Of a DNA stretch of 5,554 nt, positions 1 to 4,876 are shown piece after piece. The notes under the pieces are model-generated. The model was not told where the DNA came from, searched no databases, and saw nothing but the letters and a program-made list of their open reading frames with translations. Both the position numbers and the translations under genes were made by a program. Source of the stretch: a virus (Duplodnaviria > Heunggongvirae > Uroviricota > Caudoviricetes); IMG/VR virus record IMGVR_UViG_2698536506_000004; one strand, written 5' to 3'. How positions within the stretch are numbered: the stretch's first letter is position 1; each line of letters begins with the position of its first letter.

Positions 1-217
1 CTTTTTTTATCGTCGTGGTGAGTCGAGACATAAACCGCTGATGTCGTGGCTGGCCTGGCTGCTGATGCTGCTTTATGCCTTTGCGCCGCTTTGTTATCTG
101 TGTGGTCGCTTTCCACCCGGTAACTGGCTGGTCGTCCTGATTAACCTGGTGTTCTGCGTGCTGGTGATACGAGCACGCGGGAACGTATCAAAAATCCTTG
201 TATTACGAAGGCGCTGA
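1..217 (+). CDS. Putative holin-like small membrane protein (class II-like, two predicted TM helices); 5' end may lie upstream of the window, only in-window start is ATG at 41
   Basis: Frame 2 is open from position 2 to stop TGA 215-217. From ATG 41 the product is MSWLAWLLMLLYAFAPLCYLCGRFPPGNWLVVLINLVFCVLVIRARGNVSKILVLRRR (58 aa): two hydrophobic stretches separated by a short RFPPGN turn, then a basic C-terminal tail, which is typical holin architecture. The stop lies 1 nt before the endolysin start (219), the usual holin-endolysin arrangement. No convincing SD precedes ATG 41, so the true start may be upstream. No homolog recognised from memory. Confidence 0.5.
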   Translation, partial: FFYRRGESRHKPLMSWLAWLLMLLYAFAPLCYLCGRFPPGNWLVVLINLVFCVLVIRARGNVSKILVLRRR

Positions 218-218
218 T

Positions 219-710
219 ATGAAGTCGAAAGATGAAATTTTTGACGAAATTCTGGGAAAAGAGGGCGGTTACGTCAATCACCCGGATGATAAAGGTGGTC
301 CGACTAAATGGGGCATCACTGAAAAAGTTGCCCGTGCACACGGTTATCAGGGCGATATGCGTGACCTGACGCGNNNNNNNNNNNNNNNNNNNNNNNNNNN
401 NNNNNNNNNNNNNNNNNNNNNNNNNNNNNNNNNNNNNNNNNNNNNNNNNNNNNNNNNNNNNNNNNNNNNNNNNNNNNNNNNNNNNNNNNNNNNNNNNNNN
501 NNNNNNNNNNNNNNNNNNNNNNNNNNNNNNNNNNNNNNNNNNNNNNNNNNNNNNNNNNNNNNNNNNNNNNNNNNNNNNNNNNNNNNNNNNNNNNNNNNNN
601 NNNNNNNNNNNNNNNNNNNNNNNNNNNNNNNNNNNNNNNNNNNNNNNNNNNNNNNNNNNNNNNNNNNNNNNNNNNNNNNNGGCTGGATGAAAGAGCGCGT
701 GGCTGTGTGA
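219..710 (+). CDS. Endolysin, glycoside hydrolase family 108-like lysozyme with probable C-terminal peptidoglycan-binding domain; interior hidden by assembly gap
   Basis: ATG 219 preceded by GAAGG (207-211) at 7-nt spacing. N-terminus MKSKDEIFDEILGKEGGYVNHPDDKGGPTKWGITEKVARAHGYQGDMRDLTR carries the EGGY...DxGGxTxxGIT signature I associate with GH108 phage lysozymes (catalytic Glu in EGGY). The frame re-emerges after the N-run as GWMKERVAV then TGA 708-710. No hydrophobic SAR/signal segment at the N-terminus, so it is holin-dependent. Frame continuity across the gap cannot be verified. Confidence 0.78.
   Translation: MKSKDEIFDEILGKEGGYVNHPDDKGGPTKWGITEKVARAHGYQGDMRDLTXXXXXXXXXXXXXXXXXXXXXXXXXXXXXXXXXXXXXXXXXXXXXXXXXXXXXXXXXXXXXXXXXXXXXXXXXXXXXXXXXXXXXXXXXXXXXXXXXXXXXXXGWMKERVAV
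374..680. other. Assembly gap (run of 307 N)
   Basis: Uninterrupted N characters from 374 to 680; true length and content unknown. All ORF-track entries crossing it are partly virtual. Confidence 0.99.
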
Positions 711-799
711 TAGCATTTAAAAATGATCATTATCAATGAGTTAAGTGTATTTTGCGTTTAATTTCTCCTGGGCGTACGCAACCAAAAGGAGAAATACGT

Positions 800-1006
800 A
801 TGAAGTACTATGTTCACACTCTTACAGATAATCAGAACGATCATGAGGTTCATACAGAAACATGTTTTCGACTTCCTGATGCAAACAATCGTAAAGAGCT
901 TGGAGAGTTTAGCTCATGTGAGCCGGCAGTGAAGGCCGCAAAAAATCTGGGTTACACGAGGGTGAATGGATGTTACTGGTGCTGCAGAGATTGCCATACA
1001 TCCTGA
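800..1006 (+). CDS. Hypothetical small cysteine-rich protein (68 aa), moron-like
   Basis: ATG 800 preceded by AAGGAG (786-791) at 8-nt spacing; stop TGA 1004-1006; followed by an intrinsic terminator. Product MKYYVHTLTDNQNDHEVHTETCFRLPDANNRKELGEFSSCEPAVKAAKNLGYTRVNGCYWCCRDCHTS has Cys at 22, 40, 58, 61, 62, 65 and His at 6, 15, 18, 66; no TM segment. The ORF-track entry from 752 uses an upstream TTG lacking an RBS. Family not recognised. Confidence 0.6.
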   Translation: MKYYVHTLTDNQNDHEVHTETCFRLPDANNRKELGEFSSCEPAVKAAKNLGYTRVNGCYWCCRDCHTS

Positions 1007-1032
1007 CATAAGGTGTGAATAATTCTGACAAA

Positions 1033-1057
1033 GGTCGCTTCGGCGGCCTTTTTTATT
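1033..1057 (+). terminator. Rho-independent terminator (UUCG tetraloop hairpin + U-tract)
   Basis: GGTCGC (1033-1038) / TTCG loop (1039-1042) / GCGGCC (1043-1048) gives a 6-bp stem with one G-U pair, immediately followed by TTTTTTATT (1049-1057). It sits 27 nt after the stop of the 800-1006 gene. Confidence 0.72.
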
Positions 1058-1085
1058 ACTCAAAAACGAAAGAACGGAGGTACGT

Positions 1086-1367
1086 ATGTACGCACTCAAG
1101 AAAATCACGGTAACAGAAGACGGTCGTCATGTTGAGGAAGTGCATGTCCTGGGGGATATGTACCGCCTGGAGTTCTATCCGCGTAACACTCATCTTGCAG
1201 CGAAGATTGAGTATTGCCGGGACGGGAATATTCCGTGCATTCCTGTAGAAAAAGAGGATGAAGCCTACATCATCACACTGAACGGTGACACGGCGCGTTG
1301 TATCTGTCGTGGCGACAGTGAAGCCCGGAATGAAATAGCAAGATGTCGCGCCCATACAGATAAATAA
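1086..1367 (+). CDS. Hypothetical small protein (93 aa), moron-like
   Basis: ATG 1086 preceded by GGAGG (1076-1080) at 5-nt spacing; stop TAA 1365-1367; followed by an intrinsic terminator. Product MYALKKITVTEDGRHVEEVHVLGDMYRLEFYPRNTHLAAKIEYCRDGNIPCIPVEKEDEAYIITLNGDTARCICRGDSEARNEIARCRAHTDK; Cys at 44, 51, 72, 74, 87; no TM segment. Family not recognised. Confidence 0.6.
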   Translation: MYALKKITVTEDGRHVEEVHVLGDMYRLEFYPRNTHLAAKIEYCRDGNIPCIPVEKEDEAYIITLNGDTARCICRGDSEARNEIARCRAHTDK

Positions 1368-1377
1368 AAAGCAAAAA

Positions 1378-1409
1378 CCCCGGCTGCGGGAACAGTTCGG
1401 GGTTTTCTG
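1378..1409 (+). terminator. Rho-independent terminator, possibly bidirectional
   Basis: CCCCG (1378-1382) pairs with CGGGG (1398-1402), with an inner CTG/CAG stem (1384-1386 / 1393-1395) around a 6-nt loop, followed by TTTTCTGTTTCTG (1403-1415). An A-rich run (1361-1377) upstream would give a U-tract for the minus strand as well. Confidence 0.65.
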
Positions 1410-1438
1410 TTTCTGACCTTGAGTAAGCAAGGGAGAAC

Positions 1439-1621
1439 ATGGAGAAGTATAAACGAATTCTGTTGAGGTTGACTATGAAAAACGGCCTTGAATTGAAAGC
1501 GCCTGTAACTGATGACATCAGCAGAGCGGTGGCTTTTGCCATTAAGTGGGTGGCGGTCGGCATCGCCGTGTCTCCGATGCTGTATGGGATGGCAAAGTTG
1601 ATTGTTGCTCTGAAATCGTGA
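1439..1621 (+). CDS. Hypothetical small membrane protein (60 aa; C-terminal TM helix); alternative start ATG 1475 (48 aa)
   Basis: ATG 1439 preceded by AAGG/GGGAGA (1429-1436); the internal ATG 1475 also has GAGG (1465-1468) at 6-nt spacing. Stop TGA 1619-1621. Product MEKYKRILLRLTMKNGLELKAPVTDDISRAVAFAIKWVAVGIAVSPMLYGMAKLIVALKS: a basic amphipathic N-terminus and a single hydrophobic segment (about residues 30-57) ending 3 residues before the C-terminus. Confidence 0.5.
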   Translation: MEKYKRILLRLTMKNGLELKAPVTDDISRAVAFAIKWVAVGIAVSPMLYGMAKLIVALKS

Positions 1622-1629
1622 GTGGTGAT

Positions 1630-1812
1630 ATGACGCGAAAACACTGGACACACAGAATGCCGCGAACGGCGGCGAAATGGGCACTGGTAGCGATACTGGT
1701 GCCTTTTTTATTGTCGGGATGCGTCAGCCTGGATAGGGCGCGTCAGCTTTTGGATGCTGCCTCTCAGGTCTGTGAAATTGTCAATGGTGTCCGGCAGTGT
1801 ATGCAGAACTGA
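1630..1812 (+). CDS. Hypothetical small lipoprotein (60 aa precursor; lipobox LSGC); alternative start ATG 1657
   Basis: ATG 1630 lies 8 nt after the stop of the preceding gene, suggesting translational coupling; the SD is weak (GGTGA 1624-1628). Product MTRKHWTHRMPRTAAKWALVAILVPFLLSGCVSLDRARQLLDAASQVCEIVNGVRQCMQN: basic n-region, hydrophobic core WALVAILVPFLL and lipobox L-S-G-C, giving a ~30-aa mature peptide with four Cys including the lipidated one. Stop TGA 1810-1812. Confidence 0.55.
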   Translation: MTRKHWTHRMPRTAAKWALVAILVPFLLSGCVSLDRARQLLDAASQVCEIVNGVRQCMQN

Positions 1813-1936
1813 TCGCCTGTAAGAGCAGAATATTTTGCTGAAAAATGAAGGATGCGCCGGCGTCCGGAAAGCATGAAATTCTGCTGCGTGTACCAATTTT
1901 ATCTTGTTCATTCTAAATCTTGCCGAATCAAGCAAC

Positions 1937-1962
1937 TGCCCGGGCGGCAAGGGGCATTTTTA
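1937..1962 (+). terminator. Weak candidate hairpin + T-tract (possible terminator or translational control element) just upstream of the 1975 gene RBS
   Basis: TGCCC (1937-1941) pairs with GGGCA (1952-1956) around a 10-nt G-rich loop, followed by TTTTTA (1957-1962). The stem is only 5 bp and it ends 4 nt before the GGAGG SD (1966-1970). Low confidence. Confidence 0.2.
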
Positions 1963-1974
1963 TCCGGAGGGGAT

Positions 1975-2196
1975 ATGAAGAGATTACTGGTAACCGTAAA
2001 GCCCTTTAACGGAACGATTCCATTCAGGGTTTTGCAGCGTGGACGTGTTCTGGTTAAGGATATCTTCAGTGGTAAATGCACGGAATGTTATTCCCGGACA
2101 TATGAAGTGGATGCCACGGATGAAGAAATTTCTGTTGAATGTGATCTTAACGCGAATATGGCGGAGATTGTAACAGCCACGTTGTTGCCTGTTTAA
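1975..2196 (+). CDS. Hypothetical small protein (73 aa) immediately upstream of cos, moron-like
   Basis: ATG 1975 preceded by GGAGG (1966-1970) at 4-nt spacing; stop TAA 2194-2196. Product MKRLLVTVKPFNGTIPFRVLQRGRVLVKDIFSGKCTECYSRTYEVDATDEEISVECDLNANMAEIVTATLLPV; CxxC at 35-38 plus Cys 56; no TM segment. The ORF-track entry from 1852 is an N-terminal over-extension. Family not recognised. Confidence 0.55.
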   Translation: MKRLLVTVKPFNGTIPFRVLQRGRVLVKDIFSGKCTECYSRTYEVDATDEEISVECDLNANMAEIVTATLLPV

Positions 2197-2220
2197 TGAA
2201 TGACAGGTGTTCTCATTTGT

Positions 2221-2275
2221 GCGGGTCCTTCCGGTGGGGAGGCCTGCCACGGGGCGGCAGCGGCGCGGATTTTCG
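2221..2275 (+). other. cos: cos site core: cosQ-like conserved block and cosN (predicted terminase nicking site; predicted 12-nt cohesive end GGGCGGCAGCGG at 2252-2263)
   Basis: 2221-2251 GCGGGTCCTTCCGGTGGGGAGGCCTGCCACG resembles the lambda right end (...GCGGGTCCTTTCCGGTGATCCGACAGGTTACG, from memory). 2252-2290 GGGCGGCAGCGGCGCGGATTTTCGCTATTTATGAAAATTTT resembles the lambda left end (GGGCGGCGACCTCGCGGGTTTTCGCTATTTATGAAAATTTT). The distance from the predicted left end (2252) to the Nu1 start (2440) is 188 nt, against 190 in lambda. Nick positions are inferred by alignment, not observed. Confidence 0.75.
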
Positions 2276-2360: not shown

Positions 2361-2415
2361 GGTCCGACATGAAAGTGCCCGAAAAAGACGTTTTTGAGCA
2401 CTTCCATGTCGGACC
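2361..2415 (+). promoter_or_regulatory. cosB R2/R1-like inverted repeats (55-bp near-perfect palindrome)
   Basis: Left arm GGTCCGACATGAAAGTGC (2361-2378) and right arm GCACTTCCATGTCGGACC (2398-2415) are reverse complements at 17 of 18 positions, separated by a 19-nt spacer CCGAAAAAGACGTTTTTGA that is itself partly symmetric. In lambda, inverted Nu1-binding R2 and R1 elements occupy the same position just upstream of Nu1. Confidence 0.6.
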
Positions 2416-2439
2416 CTGCATTTGATATGGAAATGTTTT

Positions 2440-2988
2440 ATGAAGGTTAATAAAAAGAAGCTCGCGGAAATTTTCAACGTGGATCCACGAACGATTGAAC
2501 GCTGGCAGTCTCAGGGGCTCTCTTGTGTCTCTGGTGGTAGTAAGGGGGTTGAATCTGTATTTGATACCGCCATGGCAATTCAGTGGTATGCGCAACGCGA
2601 AGCCGATATTGAAAACGAAAAACTCCGCAAAGAGACCGAGGATTTGCGTGCGGCTGCGGAATCAGATTTACAACCCGGCACCATTGACTATGAACGCTAC
2701 CGACTCACAAAAGCACAGGCTGATGCACAGGAACTGAAAAATGCCCGCGAAGAAGGGCTGGTACTGGAAACGGAATTGTTTACCTTCATTCTGCAACGTG
2801 TGGCACAGGAGATTTCGGGGATACTTGTACGTGTGCCGCTGACATTACAGCGTAAATATCCGGATATTTCACCGTCACACCTTGATGTGGTGAAAACTGA
2901 AATCGCAAAAGCCTCCAACGTTGCAGCTAAAGCTGGTGAGAACGTAGGCGGGTGGATTGATGATTTCAGACGCACAGAAGGCAGCTAA
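2440..2988 (+). CDS. nu1: Terminase small subunit (lambda gpNu1 homolog)
   Basis: Product [41 protein letters not shown]...[28 protein letters not shown]... is closely similar to lambda Nu1 (MEVNKKQLADIFGASIRTIQNWQEQGMPVLRGGGKGNEVLY...[28 protein letters not shown]..., from memory); 182 aa against 181 in lambda. Stop TAA 2986-2988. The ORF-track start at 2422 is an over-extension into cosB. Confidence 0.93.
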
Positions 2989-4876
2989 TGCAGCCGGTGC
3001 GATAGCAACAGGGCTTGTATCTCTCAATATTCCGGTACCACTGACGACAGTTCAGTGGGCTGATCAGCATTATTATCTGCCAAAAGAGTCTTCATATACT
3101 CCCGGGCAATGGGAAACACTGCCGTTTCAGGTTGCCATCATGAACAGCATGGGGAATGACCGGATCCGCACCGTTAATCTGATTAAATCGGCGCGTGTTG
3201 GTTACACCAAAATGCTGTTGGGGGTGGAGGCTTATTTTATTGAACACAAATCCCGTAACAGCCTGCTTTTTCAGCCGACAGATTCTGCGGCAGAAGATTT
3301 TATGAAATCCCATGTCGAACCAACGATAAGAGACGTTCCTGTATTACTGGAGCTGGCTCCGTGGTTTGGCAGAAAACATCGGGACAACACGCTTACCCTG
3401 AAACGTTTCTCCTCCGGTGTGGGATTCTGGTGTCTGGGCGGAGCTGCTGCCAAAAACTACCGTGAAAAATCTGTGGATGTGGTCTGCTATGACGAACTCT
3501 CCTCGTTTGAACCGGATGTGGAAAAAGAAGGTTCACCAACTCTGCTTGGCGATAAGCGTATCGAAGGTTCGGTATGGCCTAAATCCATACGCGGCTCAAC
3601 GCCCAAAATTAAAGGTTTTTGCCAGATTGAAAAAGCCGCGAACGAATCTGCACATTTTATGCGGTTTTATGTGCCATGCCCTCATTGTGGTGAAGCCCAG
3701 TATCTGAAGTTTGGCGATGATGCGACAACCTTTGGCCTGAAATGGGAGAAGGGCAAGCCGGAGACGGTGTATTACCTGTGTGAACATAATGGCTGCGTGA
3801 TCCGTCAGTCGGAACTTGACCAGACCGACGGGCGGTGGATTTGTGACAATACCGGGATGTGGACGCGTGACGGTCTGACATTTTACAGCGCCGGTGATGA
3901 GGAAATCCCGCCACCGCGCTCAATCTCGTACCACATCTGGACGGCATACAGCCCGTTCACCACCTGGGTACAGATTGTTTATGACTGGCTTGATGCACTG
4001 AAGGATCCGAATGGCGTCAAGACGTTCATTAACACCACGCTGGGGGAGCCTTATGAAGAGGCTGTGGCAAAAAAACTGAGCTTTGAGTTGTTGCTGGAAA
4101 AAGTCTGCCACTATGATGCGCAGGTTCCCCTGCGGGTGGTTTACCTGACCGCAGGGATTGACTCTCAGAAAAACCGTTATGAGATTTATGTCTGGGGCTG
4201 GGCTCCTGGCGAAGAAGCTTTTCTGATTGACAAGCAGATCATCATGGGGAGACCGGAAGATGAGGACACCCTTAAACGCGTTGATGCCGTGATCCGGAAA
4301 AAATACCGTCATGCAGATGGCACTGAAATTTCCATTTCCCGCGTCTGCTGGGATACCGGTGGTATTGACCAGGACATTGTGTATCAGCGATCCAGAAAAC
4401 ACGGCACTTTTTTTGTGCTCCCCATCAAAGGGGCGTCGGTGTACGGCAAGCCGGTGATCACCATGCCAAAAAAGCGAAACCAGCGTGGGGTGTTTTTGTG
4501 TGAGGTGGGTTCCGATACCGTCAAGGAAATGCTGTATGCGCGTTTTGCCCTGCCGGTGGTATCTGCCAGTGAAGTCGCACCGTATACCTTCCGTTTTCCG
4601 GATAACCCGGACATTTTTTCTGATGTTGAAGCTAAACAACTCGTGGCAGAAGAGCTGGTTGAAAAAGTTGTGAACGGGCGGGTGAAACTCCAGTGGGATG
4701 CCAGAAAACGGCGTAATGAAGCTCTGGACTGTCTGGTGTATGCCTATGCAGCGCTGCGCATTTCCGTTCAGCGGTGGCAACTGGATCTGGATGCACTGGC
4801 CCGCGCCAGAAGAGATGAACAGGACGACGATGAAATGACTATTGAAGAAATCGCGGCTGCTCTGAGTGGAGGATAA
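2960..4876 (+). CDS. A: Terminase large subunit (lambda gpA homolog; ATPase/endonuclease)
   Basis: ATG 2960 (GGTGG 2951-2955 upstream; the TTG at 2957 is an ORF-caller alternative), overlapping the Nu1 3' end by 29 nt as in lambda. The product is colinear with lambda gpA over its whole length, for example [27 protein letters not shown] against lambda VEWADANYYLPKESAYQEGRWETLPFQ, and the Walker-A-like KSARVGYTK at 3185-3211. Stop TAA 4874-4876; 638 aa against 641 in lambda. Confidence 0.95.

What the first reader, a model, noticed from the sequence alone, without database searches (positions are those of the whole stretch)
711..2250. Five-gene cluster of unrecognised small proteins between endolysin and cos
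Between the endolysin stop (710) and cosN (~2252) lie five + strand ORFs (800-1006, 1086-1367, 1439-1621, 1630-1812, 1975-2196), each with an SD and two with their own intrinsic terminators (1033-1057, 1378-1409). In lambda the equivalent interval holds bor and two small ORFs, and in lambdoid prophages it is a known site for accessory cargo. I recognise none of these five products. Three are soluble Cys-containing proteins and two form a membrane/lipoprotein pair. The cluster also looks more A/T-rich by eye than the terminase genes, but I did not compute this. It is the best candidate in the window for an undescribed accessory, anti-defence or exclusion module.
Basis: partly seen in the sequence, partly recalled or inferred. 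Interest (0 to 1): 0.65.

Follow-up and report, generated by a model that had tools for sequence, protein, structure and literature searches.

The report
Extended prophage lysis cassette, not a module
The five small genes between the endolysin and cos are real but are not one module: they are independently shuffling late genes of an E. coli lambda-like prophage, and one of them, a 30-residue outer-membrane lipoprotein, sits exactly where other phages keep their spanin (outer-membrane lysis) genes.

Summary
All five + strand ORFs exist at the stated coordinates and are coding: pN/pS is 0.13-0.40, against 0.58-2.61 in the +1 frame (narrowest for ORF3). cosN at 2252 and both terminator hairpins are confirmed. 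The lower GC is weak (0.472 vs 0.510) and uneven.

None of the five hits Pfam, NCBIfam or PADLOC above chance. All belong to PHROG families of unknown function and are common in E. coli prophages.

Across 209 distinct endolysin-downstream regions the genes assort independently in a fixed order: endolysin-[ORF1]-[ORF2]-[ORF3-p44]-(ORF4 or Rz/Rz1)-[ORF5]-terminase.

ORF4 (1630-1812) is the conserved fourth gene of the Phage_holin_8/Phage_holin_3_7/endolysin cassette. It occurs in 103 of 117 such regions and starts 18 nt after the endolysin stop in the minimal form. It almost never co-occurs with Rz/Rz1. In Enterobacter and Leclercia relatives of the same holin pair, canonical spanins fill that slot.

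A 2018 spanin census already called its phiP27 homologue an o-spanin. The i-spanin paired with it there looks spurious, and I found no i-spanin in the complete prophage.

No + strand promoter-like site was found, so late-operon expression is likely. There is no support for an anti-defence or exclusion module. Functions of ORF1, 2, 3 and 5 stay unknown.

The parts
1..217 (+). 3' part of the second holin gene (holB, Phage_holin_3_7), cut by the window start
   Evidence: Pfam PF05449 E 1e-11 and phrog_217 'holin'. The full 92-aa gene is in the C5 copy, PF05449 E 8e-21. It is preceded in C5 by a Phage_holin_8 gene (holA).
219..710 (+). Endolysin (GH108 + PG_binding_3), with an N-masked run at about 374-680
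   Evidence: The C5 homologue hits PF05838 and PF09374. The N run is visible. Offsets to locus L001 differ by 54 nt on the two sides of the mask.
800..1006 (+). ORF1: 68-aa His/Cys-rich protein, an optional insert
   Evidence: phrog_4298 E 8e-25. pN/pS 0.13. Family of 1549 representatives at 50% identity with conserved H18 C22 C40 C58 C61 C65 H66. AF2 pLDDT 82, no fold match. Found on either side of ORF4 in relatives.
1030..1057 (+). Intrinsic-terminator-like hairpin after ORF1
   Evidence: Called by the scan. dG -14 kcal/mol, z -4.3.
1086..1367 (+). ORF2: 93-aa soluble protein, an optional insert usually directly after the endolysin
1376..1412 (.). Hairpin after ORF2, a plausible bidirectional terminator
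   Evidence: dG -20.7, z -3.3, followed by UUUUCUGUUUC on the + strand. Minus-strand terminator-like site at 1391-1378.
1439..1621 (+). ORF3: 60-aa protein with a basic N-terminal 29 residues and one C-terminal transmembrane segment; a mobile lysis-cassette insert
   Evidence: phrog_1115 E 1e-41. Hydropathy. pN/pS 0.27, against 0.58 in the +1 frame. Lies between the endolysin and the outer-membrane-step gene in both cassette types: 50 of 117 holA/holB and 53 of 66 holS regions. Its usual partner p44 is absent here.
1630..1812 (+). ORF4: 60-aa lipoprotein precursor (lipobox LSGC, Cys31; mature 30 residues with two more invariant Cys), in the spanin slot of the cassette
   Evidence: phrog_7528 E 9e-37. 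G30, C31, C48 and C57 invariant. pN/pS 0.26. Starts 18 nt after the M15 endolysin stop in 37 loci. Present in 103 of 117 holA/holB regions and almost never with Rz. The phiP27 homologue is listed as an o-spanin. It is the only credible lipoprotein signal in the late region of the 49-kb prophage locus.
1679..1710 (+). Terminator-like hairpin plus T-run inside ORF4 (in the signal-peptide codons)
   Evidence: Scan. dG -17.8, z -5.0. Conserved in family variants, but that conservation is confounded with coding. Function not established.
1975..2196 (+). ORF5: 73-aa soluble protein, a recurrent 'post-spanin' gene
   Evidence: phrog_2571 E 3.5e-28. pN/pS 0.40. Its left neighbour is Rz in 40 contexts, ORF4 in 17 and ORF2 in 1. 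In Stx2a and related phages it overlaps the Rz stop by 4 nt.
2252..2263 (+). cosN (start of the cohesive end), phage-21 type
   Evidence: Position 1 of phage 21 records X02501.1 and OL657228.1 aligns to query position 63 = window 2252, at 81% identity over the cos-terminase segment.
2440..2988 (+). Terminase small subunit (Nu1 family); marks the end of the interval
   Evidence: PF07471 E 1.6e-81. Annotated as terS in C5.

Best explanation
The interval 711-2250 is the distal part of the late lysis operon of a lambda-like E. coli prophage. It has been padded with small genes that come and go independently.

The cassette is of the phiP27 type: Phage_holin_8 holin, Phage_holin_3_7 holin, then a GH108 or M15 endolysin, then a fourth conserved gene, ORF4.

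ORF4 is made as a 60-aa lipoprotein precursor. It is cleaved and lipidated at Cys31 and, having Val rather than Asp at +2, is sent to the outer membrane. This leaves a 30-residue, probably helical, Cys-containing peptide. It occupies the position that Rz/Rz1 spanins occupy in other cassettes. I infer that it performs, or is needed for, the outer-membrane step of lysis, apparently without a canonical inner-membrane partner.

ORF1, ORF2 and ORF3 (in relatives, ORF3 plus p44) are insertions at the endolysin/spanin junction, a known insertion spot. ORF5 is a recurrent gene that follows whichever outer-membrane-step gene is present.

All are most likely transcribed with the lysis genes from the Q-dependent late promoter, which reads through the two terminators.

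SHOWN: gene reality, gene order, linkage, lipoprotein signal, absence of an i-spanin candidate. INFERRED: late expression, outer-membrane localisation, a lysis role for ORF4, any role for ORF1, 2, 3 and 5.
For: - Coding: pN/pS 0.13-0.40 for all five.
- Independent assortment and a fixed order in 209 distinct regions.
- Unbiased sample obtained through holA: 58 of 65 evaluable cassettes carry ORF4, 57 of them without Rz.
- holS/lysozyme-R cassettes: Rz in 66 of 66, ORF4 in 1 of 66. Fisher p about 1e-36, inflated by relatedness.
- ORF4 starts 18 nt after the M15 stop in 37 loci and overlaps the GH108 stop in one.
- The same optional genes flank ORF4 and Rz: ORF3-p44 upstream, ORF5 downstream.
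- Distant relatives of the same holin pair in Enterobacter and Leclercia have a canonical embedded or overlapped two-component spanin directly after the endolysin. Salmonella and Citrobacter have ORF4.
- Rare E. coli cassettes with Rz/Rz1 lack ORF4.
- The whole C5 prophage is structurally complete with no annotated spanin. ORF4 is the only credible late-region lipoprotein, and there is no type-II membrane protein with a periplasmic domain.
- Kongari et al. list the phiP27 homologue as an o-spanin.
- No + strand promoter-like site in 690-2460. Q antiterminator lies upstream in C5.
Against: - No experiment links ORF4 to lysis.
- A mature length of 30 residues cannot span the periplasm, so the spanin mechanism cannot apply as known.
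- About 10% of holA/holB cassettes (12 of 117 distinct; 6 of 65 in the unbiased set) have neither ORF4 nor Rz. So ORF4 is dispensable, or those prophages are defective.
- One locus has both Rz/Rz1 and a shortened ORF4.
- Slot equivalence could arise from recombination between shared flanks without shared function.
- ORF4 shows no sequence similarity to lambda-type Rz1 (hhalign probability 4.7%).
- The promoter scan is a crude consensus test and cannot exclude weak or non-sigma-70 promoters.
- Loci are related by descent, so the counts are not independent.
Confidence: 0.6

Rival explanations
1. One reading: the cluster, or part of it, is prophage-expressed accessory cargo acting in anti-defence, superinfection exclusion or host fitness. 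For example, ORF3 and ORF4 could be an envelope-level exclusion pair like Cor/Llp or Imm/Sp, and ORF1, ORF2 and ORF5 could be soluble inhibitors.
For: - The interval varies between related prophages.
- ORF1 and ORF2 are each followed by a terminator hairpin, as morons often are.
- ORF1 and ORF5 have GC about 0.43, against 0.51 for the structural genes.
- The products are small, uncharacterised and under purifying selection.
- Lipoproteins and small membrane proteins are typical exclusion factors (established knowledge).
Against: - No PADLOC, Pfam or NCBIfam match above chance.
- No + strand promoter-like site.
- The genes do not co-occur as a unit.
- ORF4 is tied to one cassette type and almost never occurs with Rz.
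- ORF5 overlaps the Rz stop in Stx phages, and ORF4 abuts the endolysin stop, which indicates late-operon coupling.
- Anti-defence genes are usually early genes (established knowledge).
Confidence: 0.15
2. ORF3 and ORF4 form a canonical but very short two-component spanin (i-spanin plus o-spanin), as the 2018 census classified phiP27.
For: - ORF3 is a membrane protein and ends 8 nt before ORF4, a lipoprotein.
- Kongari et al. class phiP27 as a 'separated' two-component spanin. [quoted passage not shown]
Against: - ORF3's only TM segment is C-terminal and its 29-residue N-terminus is net +3, which predicts N-in with nothing in the periplasm.
- ORF3 is absent from 48 distinct contexts where ORF4 directly follows the endolysin.
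- ORF3 is present in 53 of 66 cassettes that already have Rz.
- phiP27 itself has no ORF3 homologue.
- The census i-spanin there is a TTG-start ORF antisense to a 90-aa gene with its own PHROG family, and it occurs in no other locus.
- 29 + 30 residues is shorter than the shortest spanin in the census (62).
Confidence: 0.07
3. ORF4 is a lipoprotein unrelated to lysis (for example a Bor- or Cor-like conversion or exclusion factor) that happens to be linked to this cassette. These phages are genuinely spanin-less and rely on shear, or on another factor, for outer-membrane rupture.
For: - About 10% of cassettes lack both ORF4 and Rz.
- The mature peptide is too short to bridge the envelope.
- About 13% of phages in the census have no spanin, and 31 genomes have a lipoprotein without an i-spanin.
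- In lambda, the lipoprotein gene bor lies just after Rz (established knowledge).
Against: - ORF4 is on the late strand, 18 nt from or overlapping the endolysin stop, unlike bor, which is transcribed from the opposite strand (established knowledge).
- It almost never occurs with Rz/Rz1, and canonical spanins replace it in distant relatives of the same holins.
- No match to the Bor Pfam family or any other curated lipoprotein family.
Confidence: 0.18

Closest known systems
phiP27 'o-spanin' (record NC_003356 20706-20861) in the census of Kongari et al. 2018 (PMC6139136)
   Same: It is the same protein family as ORF4: 85% identity, the same lipobox, a 30-residue mature part and the same position after a two-holin plus endolysin cassette.
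   Different: The census pairs it with a 64-aa i-spanin. Here that ORF appears spurious and is confined to phiP27. Neither the window nor >100 other distinct ORF4-carrying cassettes have such a partner. The call was computational and has not been tested.
Lambda Rz/Rz1 two-component spanin
   Same: It occupies the same slot, directly after the endolysin (or after the same optional inserts) and before ORF5. ORF4, like Rz1, is a 60-aa lipoprotein precursor with periplasmic Cys.
   Different: There is no Rz-like type-II membrane partner. ORF4 has no proline-rich region and no sequence similarity (hhalign probability 4.7%). The mature part is 30 residues against 40, and it is separate rather than embedded.
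Unimolecular spanin (T1 gp11)
   Same: It is a single gene with an N-terminal lipoprotein signal in a lysis cassette.
   Different: ORF4 has no C-terminal transmembrane segment and is far too short.
Disruptin (phiKT gp28), the cationic peptide that disrupts the outer membrane in a spanin-less coliphage (bioRxiv 10.1101/515445)
   Same: It is a small stand-alone product that could replace spanins. ORF4 has a moderately amphipathic helix (moment 0.55).
   Different: The abstract describes gp28 as a cationic antimicrobial-type peptide. ORF4 is lipid-anchored and its mature part has net charge 0.
Lambdoid 'moron' cargo such as bor and lom
   Same: These are small genes inserted between functional blocks, with variable content between relatives. 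ORF1 and ORF2 have terminators.
   Different: No own promoter was detected, and the genes lie co-directionally inside the late operon. bor itself is absent (no Bor family hit).

Membership tests
o-spanin of a two-component spanin | N-terminal lipoprotein signal with a lipobox Cys, and no Asp at +2 (outer-membrane sorting) | tested here: met
   LSGC/LVGC lipobox with G30 and C31 invariant, and Val or Ala at +2 in the 21 clusters aligned; same pattern in the variants from the loci.
o-spanin of a two-component spanin | Gene lies in the lysis cassette next to the endolysin | tested here: met
   18-nt gap to the M15 stop in 37 loci and overlap with the GH108 stop in one. In the window it is separated only by inserted small genes.
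o-spanin of a two-component spanin | A cognate i-spanin: a type-II inner-membrane protein gene that embeds, overlaps or adjoins it | tested here: not met
   No such ORF in the minimal cassettes or anywhere in the 49-kb C5 prophage locus. The phiP27 candidate is unique to phiP27 and antisense to a real gene.
o-spanin of a two-component spanin | Combined periplasmic length sufficient to bridge the inner and outer membranes | tested here: not met
   The mature part is 30 residues. The census minimum for a pair is 62, and that minimum is this same family.
o-spanin of a two-component spanin | Complements the outer-membrane lysis defect of an Rz/Rz1 null phage | not testable with these tools
   This needs the lambda Rz-am Rz1-am lysogen assay.
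Unimolecular spanin (T1 gp11 type) | Lipoprotein signal AND a C-terminal transmembrane domain in one polypeptide | tested here: not met
   The only hydrophobic segment is the signal peptide (maximum hydropathy at residue 14). The C-terminus is polar.
Disruptin (phiKT gp28 type) | Cationic amphipathic peptide (per the abstract of bioRxiv 10.1101/515445) | tested here: not met
   Mature ORF4 has net charge 0 and a lipoprotein signal. Its amphipathicity is marginal (5.4% of shuffles reach it). The gp28 sequence itself was not compared.
Moron (autonomous accessory gene in a prophage) | Own promoter and terminator, composition different from neighbours | tested here: inconclusive
   Terminator hairpins follow ORF1 and ORF2. 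No + strand promoter-like site was found. The GC difference is small and limited to ORF1 and ORF5.
Known anti-phage defence or exclusion proteins | Sequence match to a described defence family | tested here: not met
   No PADLOC hit for any of the five at E <= 1, and none in Pfam or NCBIfam above chance.
phiP27-type lysis cassette | Phage_holin_8 + Phage_holin_3_7 + M15 or GH108 endolysin, co-directional, followed by the ORF4-family lipoprotein | tested here: met
   Pfam assignments. Architecture in the window, C5, R1, phiP27, phiSTEC1575-Stx2k, Salmonella and Citrobacter.

The most novel reading that the evidence does not exclude
The ORF4 family is a stand-alone 30-residue outer-membrane lipopeptide that completes lysis without any inner-membrane partner. 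That would make it a further class of phage outer-membrane-disruption factor beside two-component spanins, unimolecular spanins and disruptin. It would be carried by a common group of E. coli, Salmonella and Citrobacter prophages that includes the Stx2e phage phiP27 and an Stx2k phage. A weaker corollary is that ORF3/p44 and ORF5, which travel with either kind of outer-membrane gene, are undescribed lysis modulators.
Probability: 0.25. Interest if true: 0.7.

Novelty: new variant of a known kind. Interest (0 to 1): 0.4.

Why it matters
How phages without recognisable spanins breach the outer membrane is an open question. The 2018 census found none in about 13% of phages of Gram-negative hosts, and 31 genomes had a lipoprotein but no i-spanin. 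Only one alternative, disruptin, has been demonstrated.

This cassette offers a tractable E. coli case. It has a short lipoprotein in the spanin slot, no inner-membrane partner that I could find, natural variants where Rz/Rz1 has replaced it, and a ready complementation assay. It also corrects a probable mis-call in the census (the phiP27 i-spanin).

The work shows that current genome annotation often omits ORF1 and ORF4. For the scan itself, the result is mainly deflationary. The 'five-gene module' is a mosaic of common hypothetical late genes, with no evidence of defence or anti-defence function.

Tried and rejected
- **Curated families:** Pfam, NCBIfam and PADLOC scans of all five proteins found nothing above chance.
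- **PDB by sequence:** searches with ORF1, ORF2, ORF5 and the ORF4 profile gave nothing meaningful.
- **RNA families:** an Rfam scan of the window found only sub-threshold chance hits.
- **ORF4 as an Lpp mimic:** rejected. The hhalign match (probability 61%) covers only the signal peptide, the lipobox and a few residues.
- **ORF4 as a relative of lambda-type Rz1:** rejected (probability 4.7%).
- **ORF3 as the i-spanin:** rejected on topology, on its absence from the minimal cassettes, and on its co-occurrence with Rz.
- **The census i-spanin of phiP27:** rejected as not conserved and antisense to a PHROG-supported gene.
- **A spanin elsewhere in the prophage:** none was annotated or found by a lipobox/TM screen.
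- **Literature:** searches for orphan o-spanins and for this cassette type found no functional work. One search failed on a term that was too short.
- **Spurious ORFs:** the idea that the ORFs are non-coding was rejected by pN/pS.


Full report
**1. What the window is**

The window is 99.9% identical over 711-2450 to a prophage in E. coli strain C5 from a cow (NZ_CP010122.1).

That prophage runs from integrase to tail fibres. It is lambda-like, looks structurally complete, and carries a Q antiterminator upstream of the lysis genes.

The window holds, in order:
- the 3' end of a Phage_holin_3_7 holin;
- a GH108 endolysin, with an N-masked run at about 374-680;
- the five small ORFs;
- cos;
- Nu1, terminase large subunit, a gpW-like gene and the start of portal.

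In C5 a Phage_holin_8 holin precedes the Phage_holin_3_7 gene.

**2. Check of the observation**

The five + strand ORFs are at the stated coordinates. ORF1, 2, 3 and 5 have good SD sequences, and ORF4's is weak.

All five are under purifying selection in their own frame. pN/pS is 0.13, 0.19, 0.27, 0.26 and 0.40, against 0.58-2.61 in the +1 frame control. They are real genes, although PGAP annotates only three of them in C5. The margin is smallest for ORF3 (0.27 vs 0.58).

The terminator after ORF1 is called by the scan (1030-1051 plus T-tract). The hairpin after ORF2 was not called on the + strand, but it folds at -20.7 kcal/mol (z -3.3) and is followed by a U-rich tract.

cosN is confirmed: position 1 of two phage 21 records aligns to window 2252.

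The compositional claim is weak. GC is 0.472 against 0.510, carried by ORF1 (0.435) and ORF5 (0.432), while ORF4 is 0.536.

The consensus scan finds no + strand promoter-like site anywhere in 690-2460.

**3. What the proteins are**

None of the five matches Pfam, NCBIfam or PADLOC above chance. The only Pfam line is a DUF2963 hit to ORF2 at E 0.15, below the curated cutoff. Each belongs to a PHROG family of unknown function, and all public names are 'hypothetical'.

- **ORF1 (68 aa)** belongs to a very large family of stand-alone proteins of about 68 aa. It has 1549 representatives at 50% identity with E <= 1e-3. The family keeps a conserved H18/C22/C40/C58/C61/C65/H66 signature, so it is probably a small metal-binding protein (inference). 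The AF2 model (pLDDT 82) matches nothing in the PDB or BFVD.
- **ORF2 (93 aa)** has a small family restricted to Enterobacterales, and its cysteines are not conserved. The model is an all-beta domain plus a helix (pLDDT 76), with no significant fold match.
- **ORF3 (60 aa)** has a basic 29-residue N-terminus and a single C-terminal transmembrane segment, which divergent relatives keep.
- **ORF4 (60 aa)** is a lipoprotein precursor. G30, C31, C48 and C57 are invariant, the lipobox is LSGC or LVGC, the +2 residue is Val or Ala, and the mature part is 30 residues with net charge 0. The family is found in Escherichia, Salmonella, Citrobacter and Yersinia.
- **ORF5 (73 aa)** is soluble, and its cysteines are not conserved.

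**4. It is not a module**

I collected about 375 loci through each of the five proteins and, independently, through the first holin. I mapped a panel of marker proteins onto them.

In 209 distinct endolysin-downstream regions the genes occur in many combinations but in one order: endolysin - [ORF1] - [ORF2] - [ORF3 - p44] - (ORF4 or Rz/Rz1) - [ORF5] - other small genes - terminase.

Further points on linkage:
- ORF1 is also found after ORF4.
- ORF3's usual right neighbour is a 43-44 aa membrane protein, p44 (75 contexts). It is present in strain R1 but missing as a clean gap of about 150 bp in the window.
- ORF3 and p44 occur in two unrelated cassette types: 50 of 117 holA/holB regions and 53 of 66 holS/lysozyme-R regions.
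- ORF5's left neighbour is the outer-membrane-step gene in 57 of 58 contexts (Rz 40, ORF4 17, ORF2 1). In Stx2a and related phages it overlaps the Rz stop by 4 nt.

**5. ORF4 sits in the spanin slot**

- In the sample drawn through holA, which is unbiased with respect to ORF4, 58 of 65 evaluable cassettes carry ORF4 and 57 of these lack Rz. One cassette has Rz only and six have neither.
- Over all distinct regions, holA/holB cassettes have ORF4 in 103 of 117 and Rz in 3 of 117. holS cassettes have Rz in 66 of 66 and ORF4 in 1 of 66. Fisher p is about 1e-36, an overstatement because the loci are related.
- In the minimal form, ORF4 starts 18 nt after the M15 endolysin stop (37 loci) or overlaps the GH108 stop, with no intervening ORF.
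- The rare holA/holB cassettes with a complete embedded Rz/Rz1 lack ORF4.
- In one-genome-per-species data, Salmonella and Citrobacter relatives have ORF4. More distant relatives of the same holin pair in Enterobacter (45% identity) and Leclercia (40%) have a canonical embedded or overlapped i-/o-spanin pair directly after the endolysin.

Position, tight coupling to the endolysin and near-exclusivity with Rz/Rz1 together make a role in the outer-membrane step of lysis the best-supported inference.

**6. Relation to what is known**

Kongari et al. 2018 (PMC6139136) list phiP27 as a 'separated' two-component spanin, the shortest in their census at 62 periplasmic residues. Their o-spanin coordinates are the ORF4 homologue.

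Their i-spanin is a 64-aa TTG-start ORF antisense to a 90-aa minus-strand ORF. That minus-strand ORF matches a PHROG family over its full length. The region occurs in no other locus I hold.

The complete C5 prophage has no annotated spanin. It has no other credible late-region lipoprotein signal and no type-II membrane protein with a periplasmic domain.

ORF4 therefore meets the lipoprotein and position criteria of an o-spanin. It fails the partner and length criteria, and it is not similar to lambda-type Rz1. It lacks the C-terminal TMD of a unimolecular spanin. It also lacks the cationic character reported for disruptin.

The same paper notes 31 genomes with a lipoprotein but no i-spanin, so this is a recognised unresolved category.

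**7. Mechanism, and how sure I am**

Shown:
- gene reality, order and linkage;
- the lipoprotein signal;
- absence of an i-spanin candidate.

Inferred:
- the genes are read from the Q-dependent late promoter through both terminators;
- ORF4 is lipidated and sorted to the outer membrane;
- ORF4 is needed for the outer-membrane step.

How a 30-residue lipopeptide would do this is unknown. Disulfide-linked oligomerisation through C48 and C57, or action on an envelope component, are speculations.

ORF3/p44 may modulate lysis, given their position inside two cassette types, but that is a guess. ORF1, ORF2 and ORF5 remain of unknown function.

Confidence is about 0.75 that the interval is a mosaic of independent late genes with ORF4 as a core cassette gene. 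It is about 0.5 that ORF4 acts in outer-membrane disruption, and about 0.25 that it does so alone.

**8. Verdict**

The interval is an extended lysis cassette plus common hypothetical late genes, and nothing points to defence, anti-defence or exclusion.

The one element of real interest is the orphan o-spanin-like lipoprotein. It is a new variant of a known kind and can be tested directly in the lambda spanin-complementation system.

Noticed in passing
window 374-680: There is a run of N inside the endolysin gene. Offsets to the C5 copy differ by 54 nt on the two sides of the mask (217 maps to L001 5453; 711 maps to L001 6001). So either the mask does not preserve length, or this endolysin is 18 codons shorter than the C5 one.
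   Followed up: partly
window 1679-1710 (+), inside ORF4: A strong terminator-like hairpin (11-bp stem, dG -17.8, z -5.0) followed by UUUUUU lies within the signal-peptide codons of ORF4. It is kept in nearly all family variants, but the coding constraint confounds this. It could attenuate non-antiterminated transcripts before the lipoprotein is made.
   Followed up: partly
window 2361-2417: A long near-perfect inverted repeat (dG -34.9 kcal/mol, z -8.7) lies between cosN and the Nu1 start, in the cosB-equivalent region. It may be paired terminase or IHF binding sites or a transcript structure. It was not compared across phage 21-type cos sites.
   Followed up: no
window 1621-1630 versus L002 3911-4068: The window (like C5) lacks the gene of about 150 bp for the 44-aa membrane protein p44 (phrog_4906). 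In strain R1 and many relatives p44 lies between ORF3 and ORF4.
   Followed up: yes
L001 6376-6656 (C5 copy of ORF2): ORF2 is a frameshifted pseudogene in strain C5 but intact in the window, so the window comes from a different, very close strain. PGAP annotates neither ORF1 nor ORF4 in C5.
   Followed up: partly
L003 3452-3607 (phiP27 L32) and 3170-3364: The deposited phiP27 CDS L32 overlaps the ORF4 homologue in another frame, which is a probable mis-annotation. The ORF used as 'i-spanin' in the 2018 census is antisense to an unannotated 90-aa ORF (3154-3426, minus strand) that matches phrog_36812 over its full length.
   Followed up: yes
L376 5030-6042 (minus strand; early region of the C5 prophage, outside the window): A 275-aa SPFH-domain protein with a lipoprotein-type signal (…LVGC) is followed by a 62-aa membrane protein. 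A RelE/ParE toxin-antitoxin pair lies nearby (11317-11944). This early-region pair is a better candidate for an envelope-level defence or exclusion function than anything in the window.
   Followed up: no
L376 17599-20897 (between Q and the holins in C5, outside the window): An OmpC-family porin gene on the opposite strand, a DNA methyltransferase and a tRNA-Gly occupy the position where Stx phages carry stx. This is typical late-promoter-proximal cargo.
   Followed up: no
PP818812.1, about 20079-20380: A record named Actinobacillus phage vB_Apl-pPE4 carries the ORF4 region at 92% nucleotide identity to this E. coli prophage, and the gene is unannotated there. That is unexpectedly close for a Pasteurellaceae host. 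It suggests an enterobacterial origin of that phage, or a host mis-assignment.
   Followed up: no
L378 6027-6587 (Salmonella enterica): A 186-aa ORF that looks antirepressor-like to my eye (not tested against any family library) is inserted between the GH108 endolysin and the ORF4 homologue. This suggests the endolysin/outer-membrane-gene junction is a general insertion spot.
   Followed up: no
window 752, 1546 and 1852: In-frame upstream alternative starts extend ORF1 (TTG 752, 84 aa), ORF4 (GTG 1546, 88 aa, overlapping ORF3) and ORF5 (ATG 1852, 114 aa). Database entries of 51, 60, 71 and 84 aa for ORF4 and 74 and 81 aa for ORF5 show that gene callers disagree on the starts. Conservation of residues 3-9 (RKHWTHR) supports the 60-aa start for ORF4.
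   Followed up: partly
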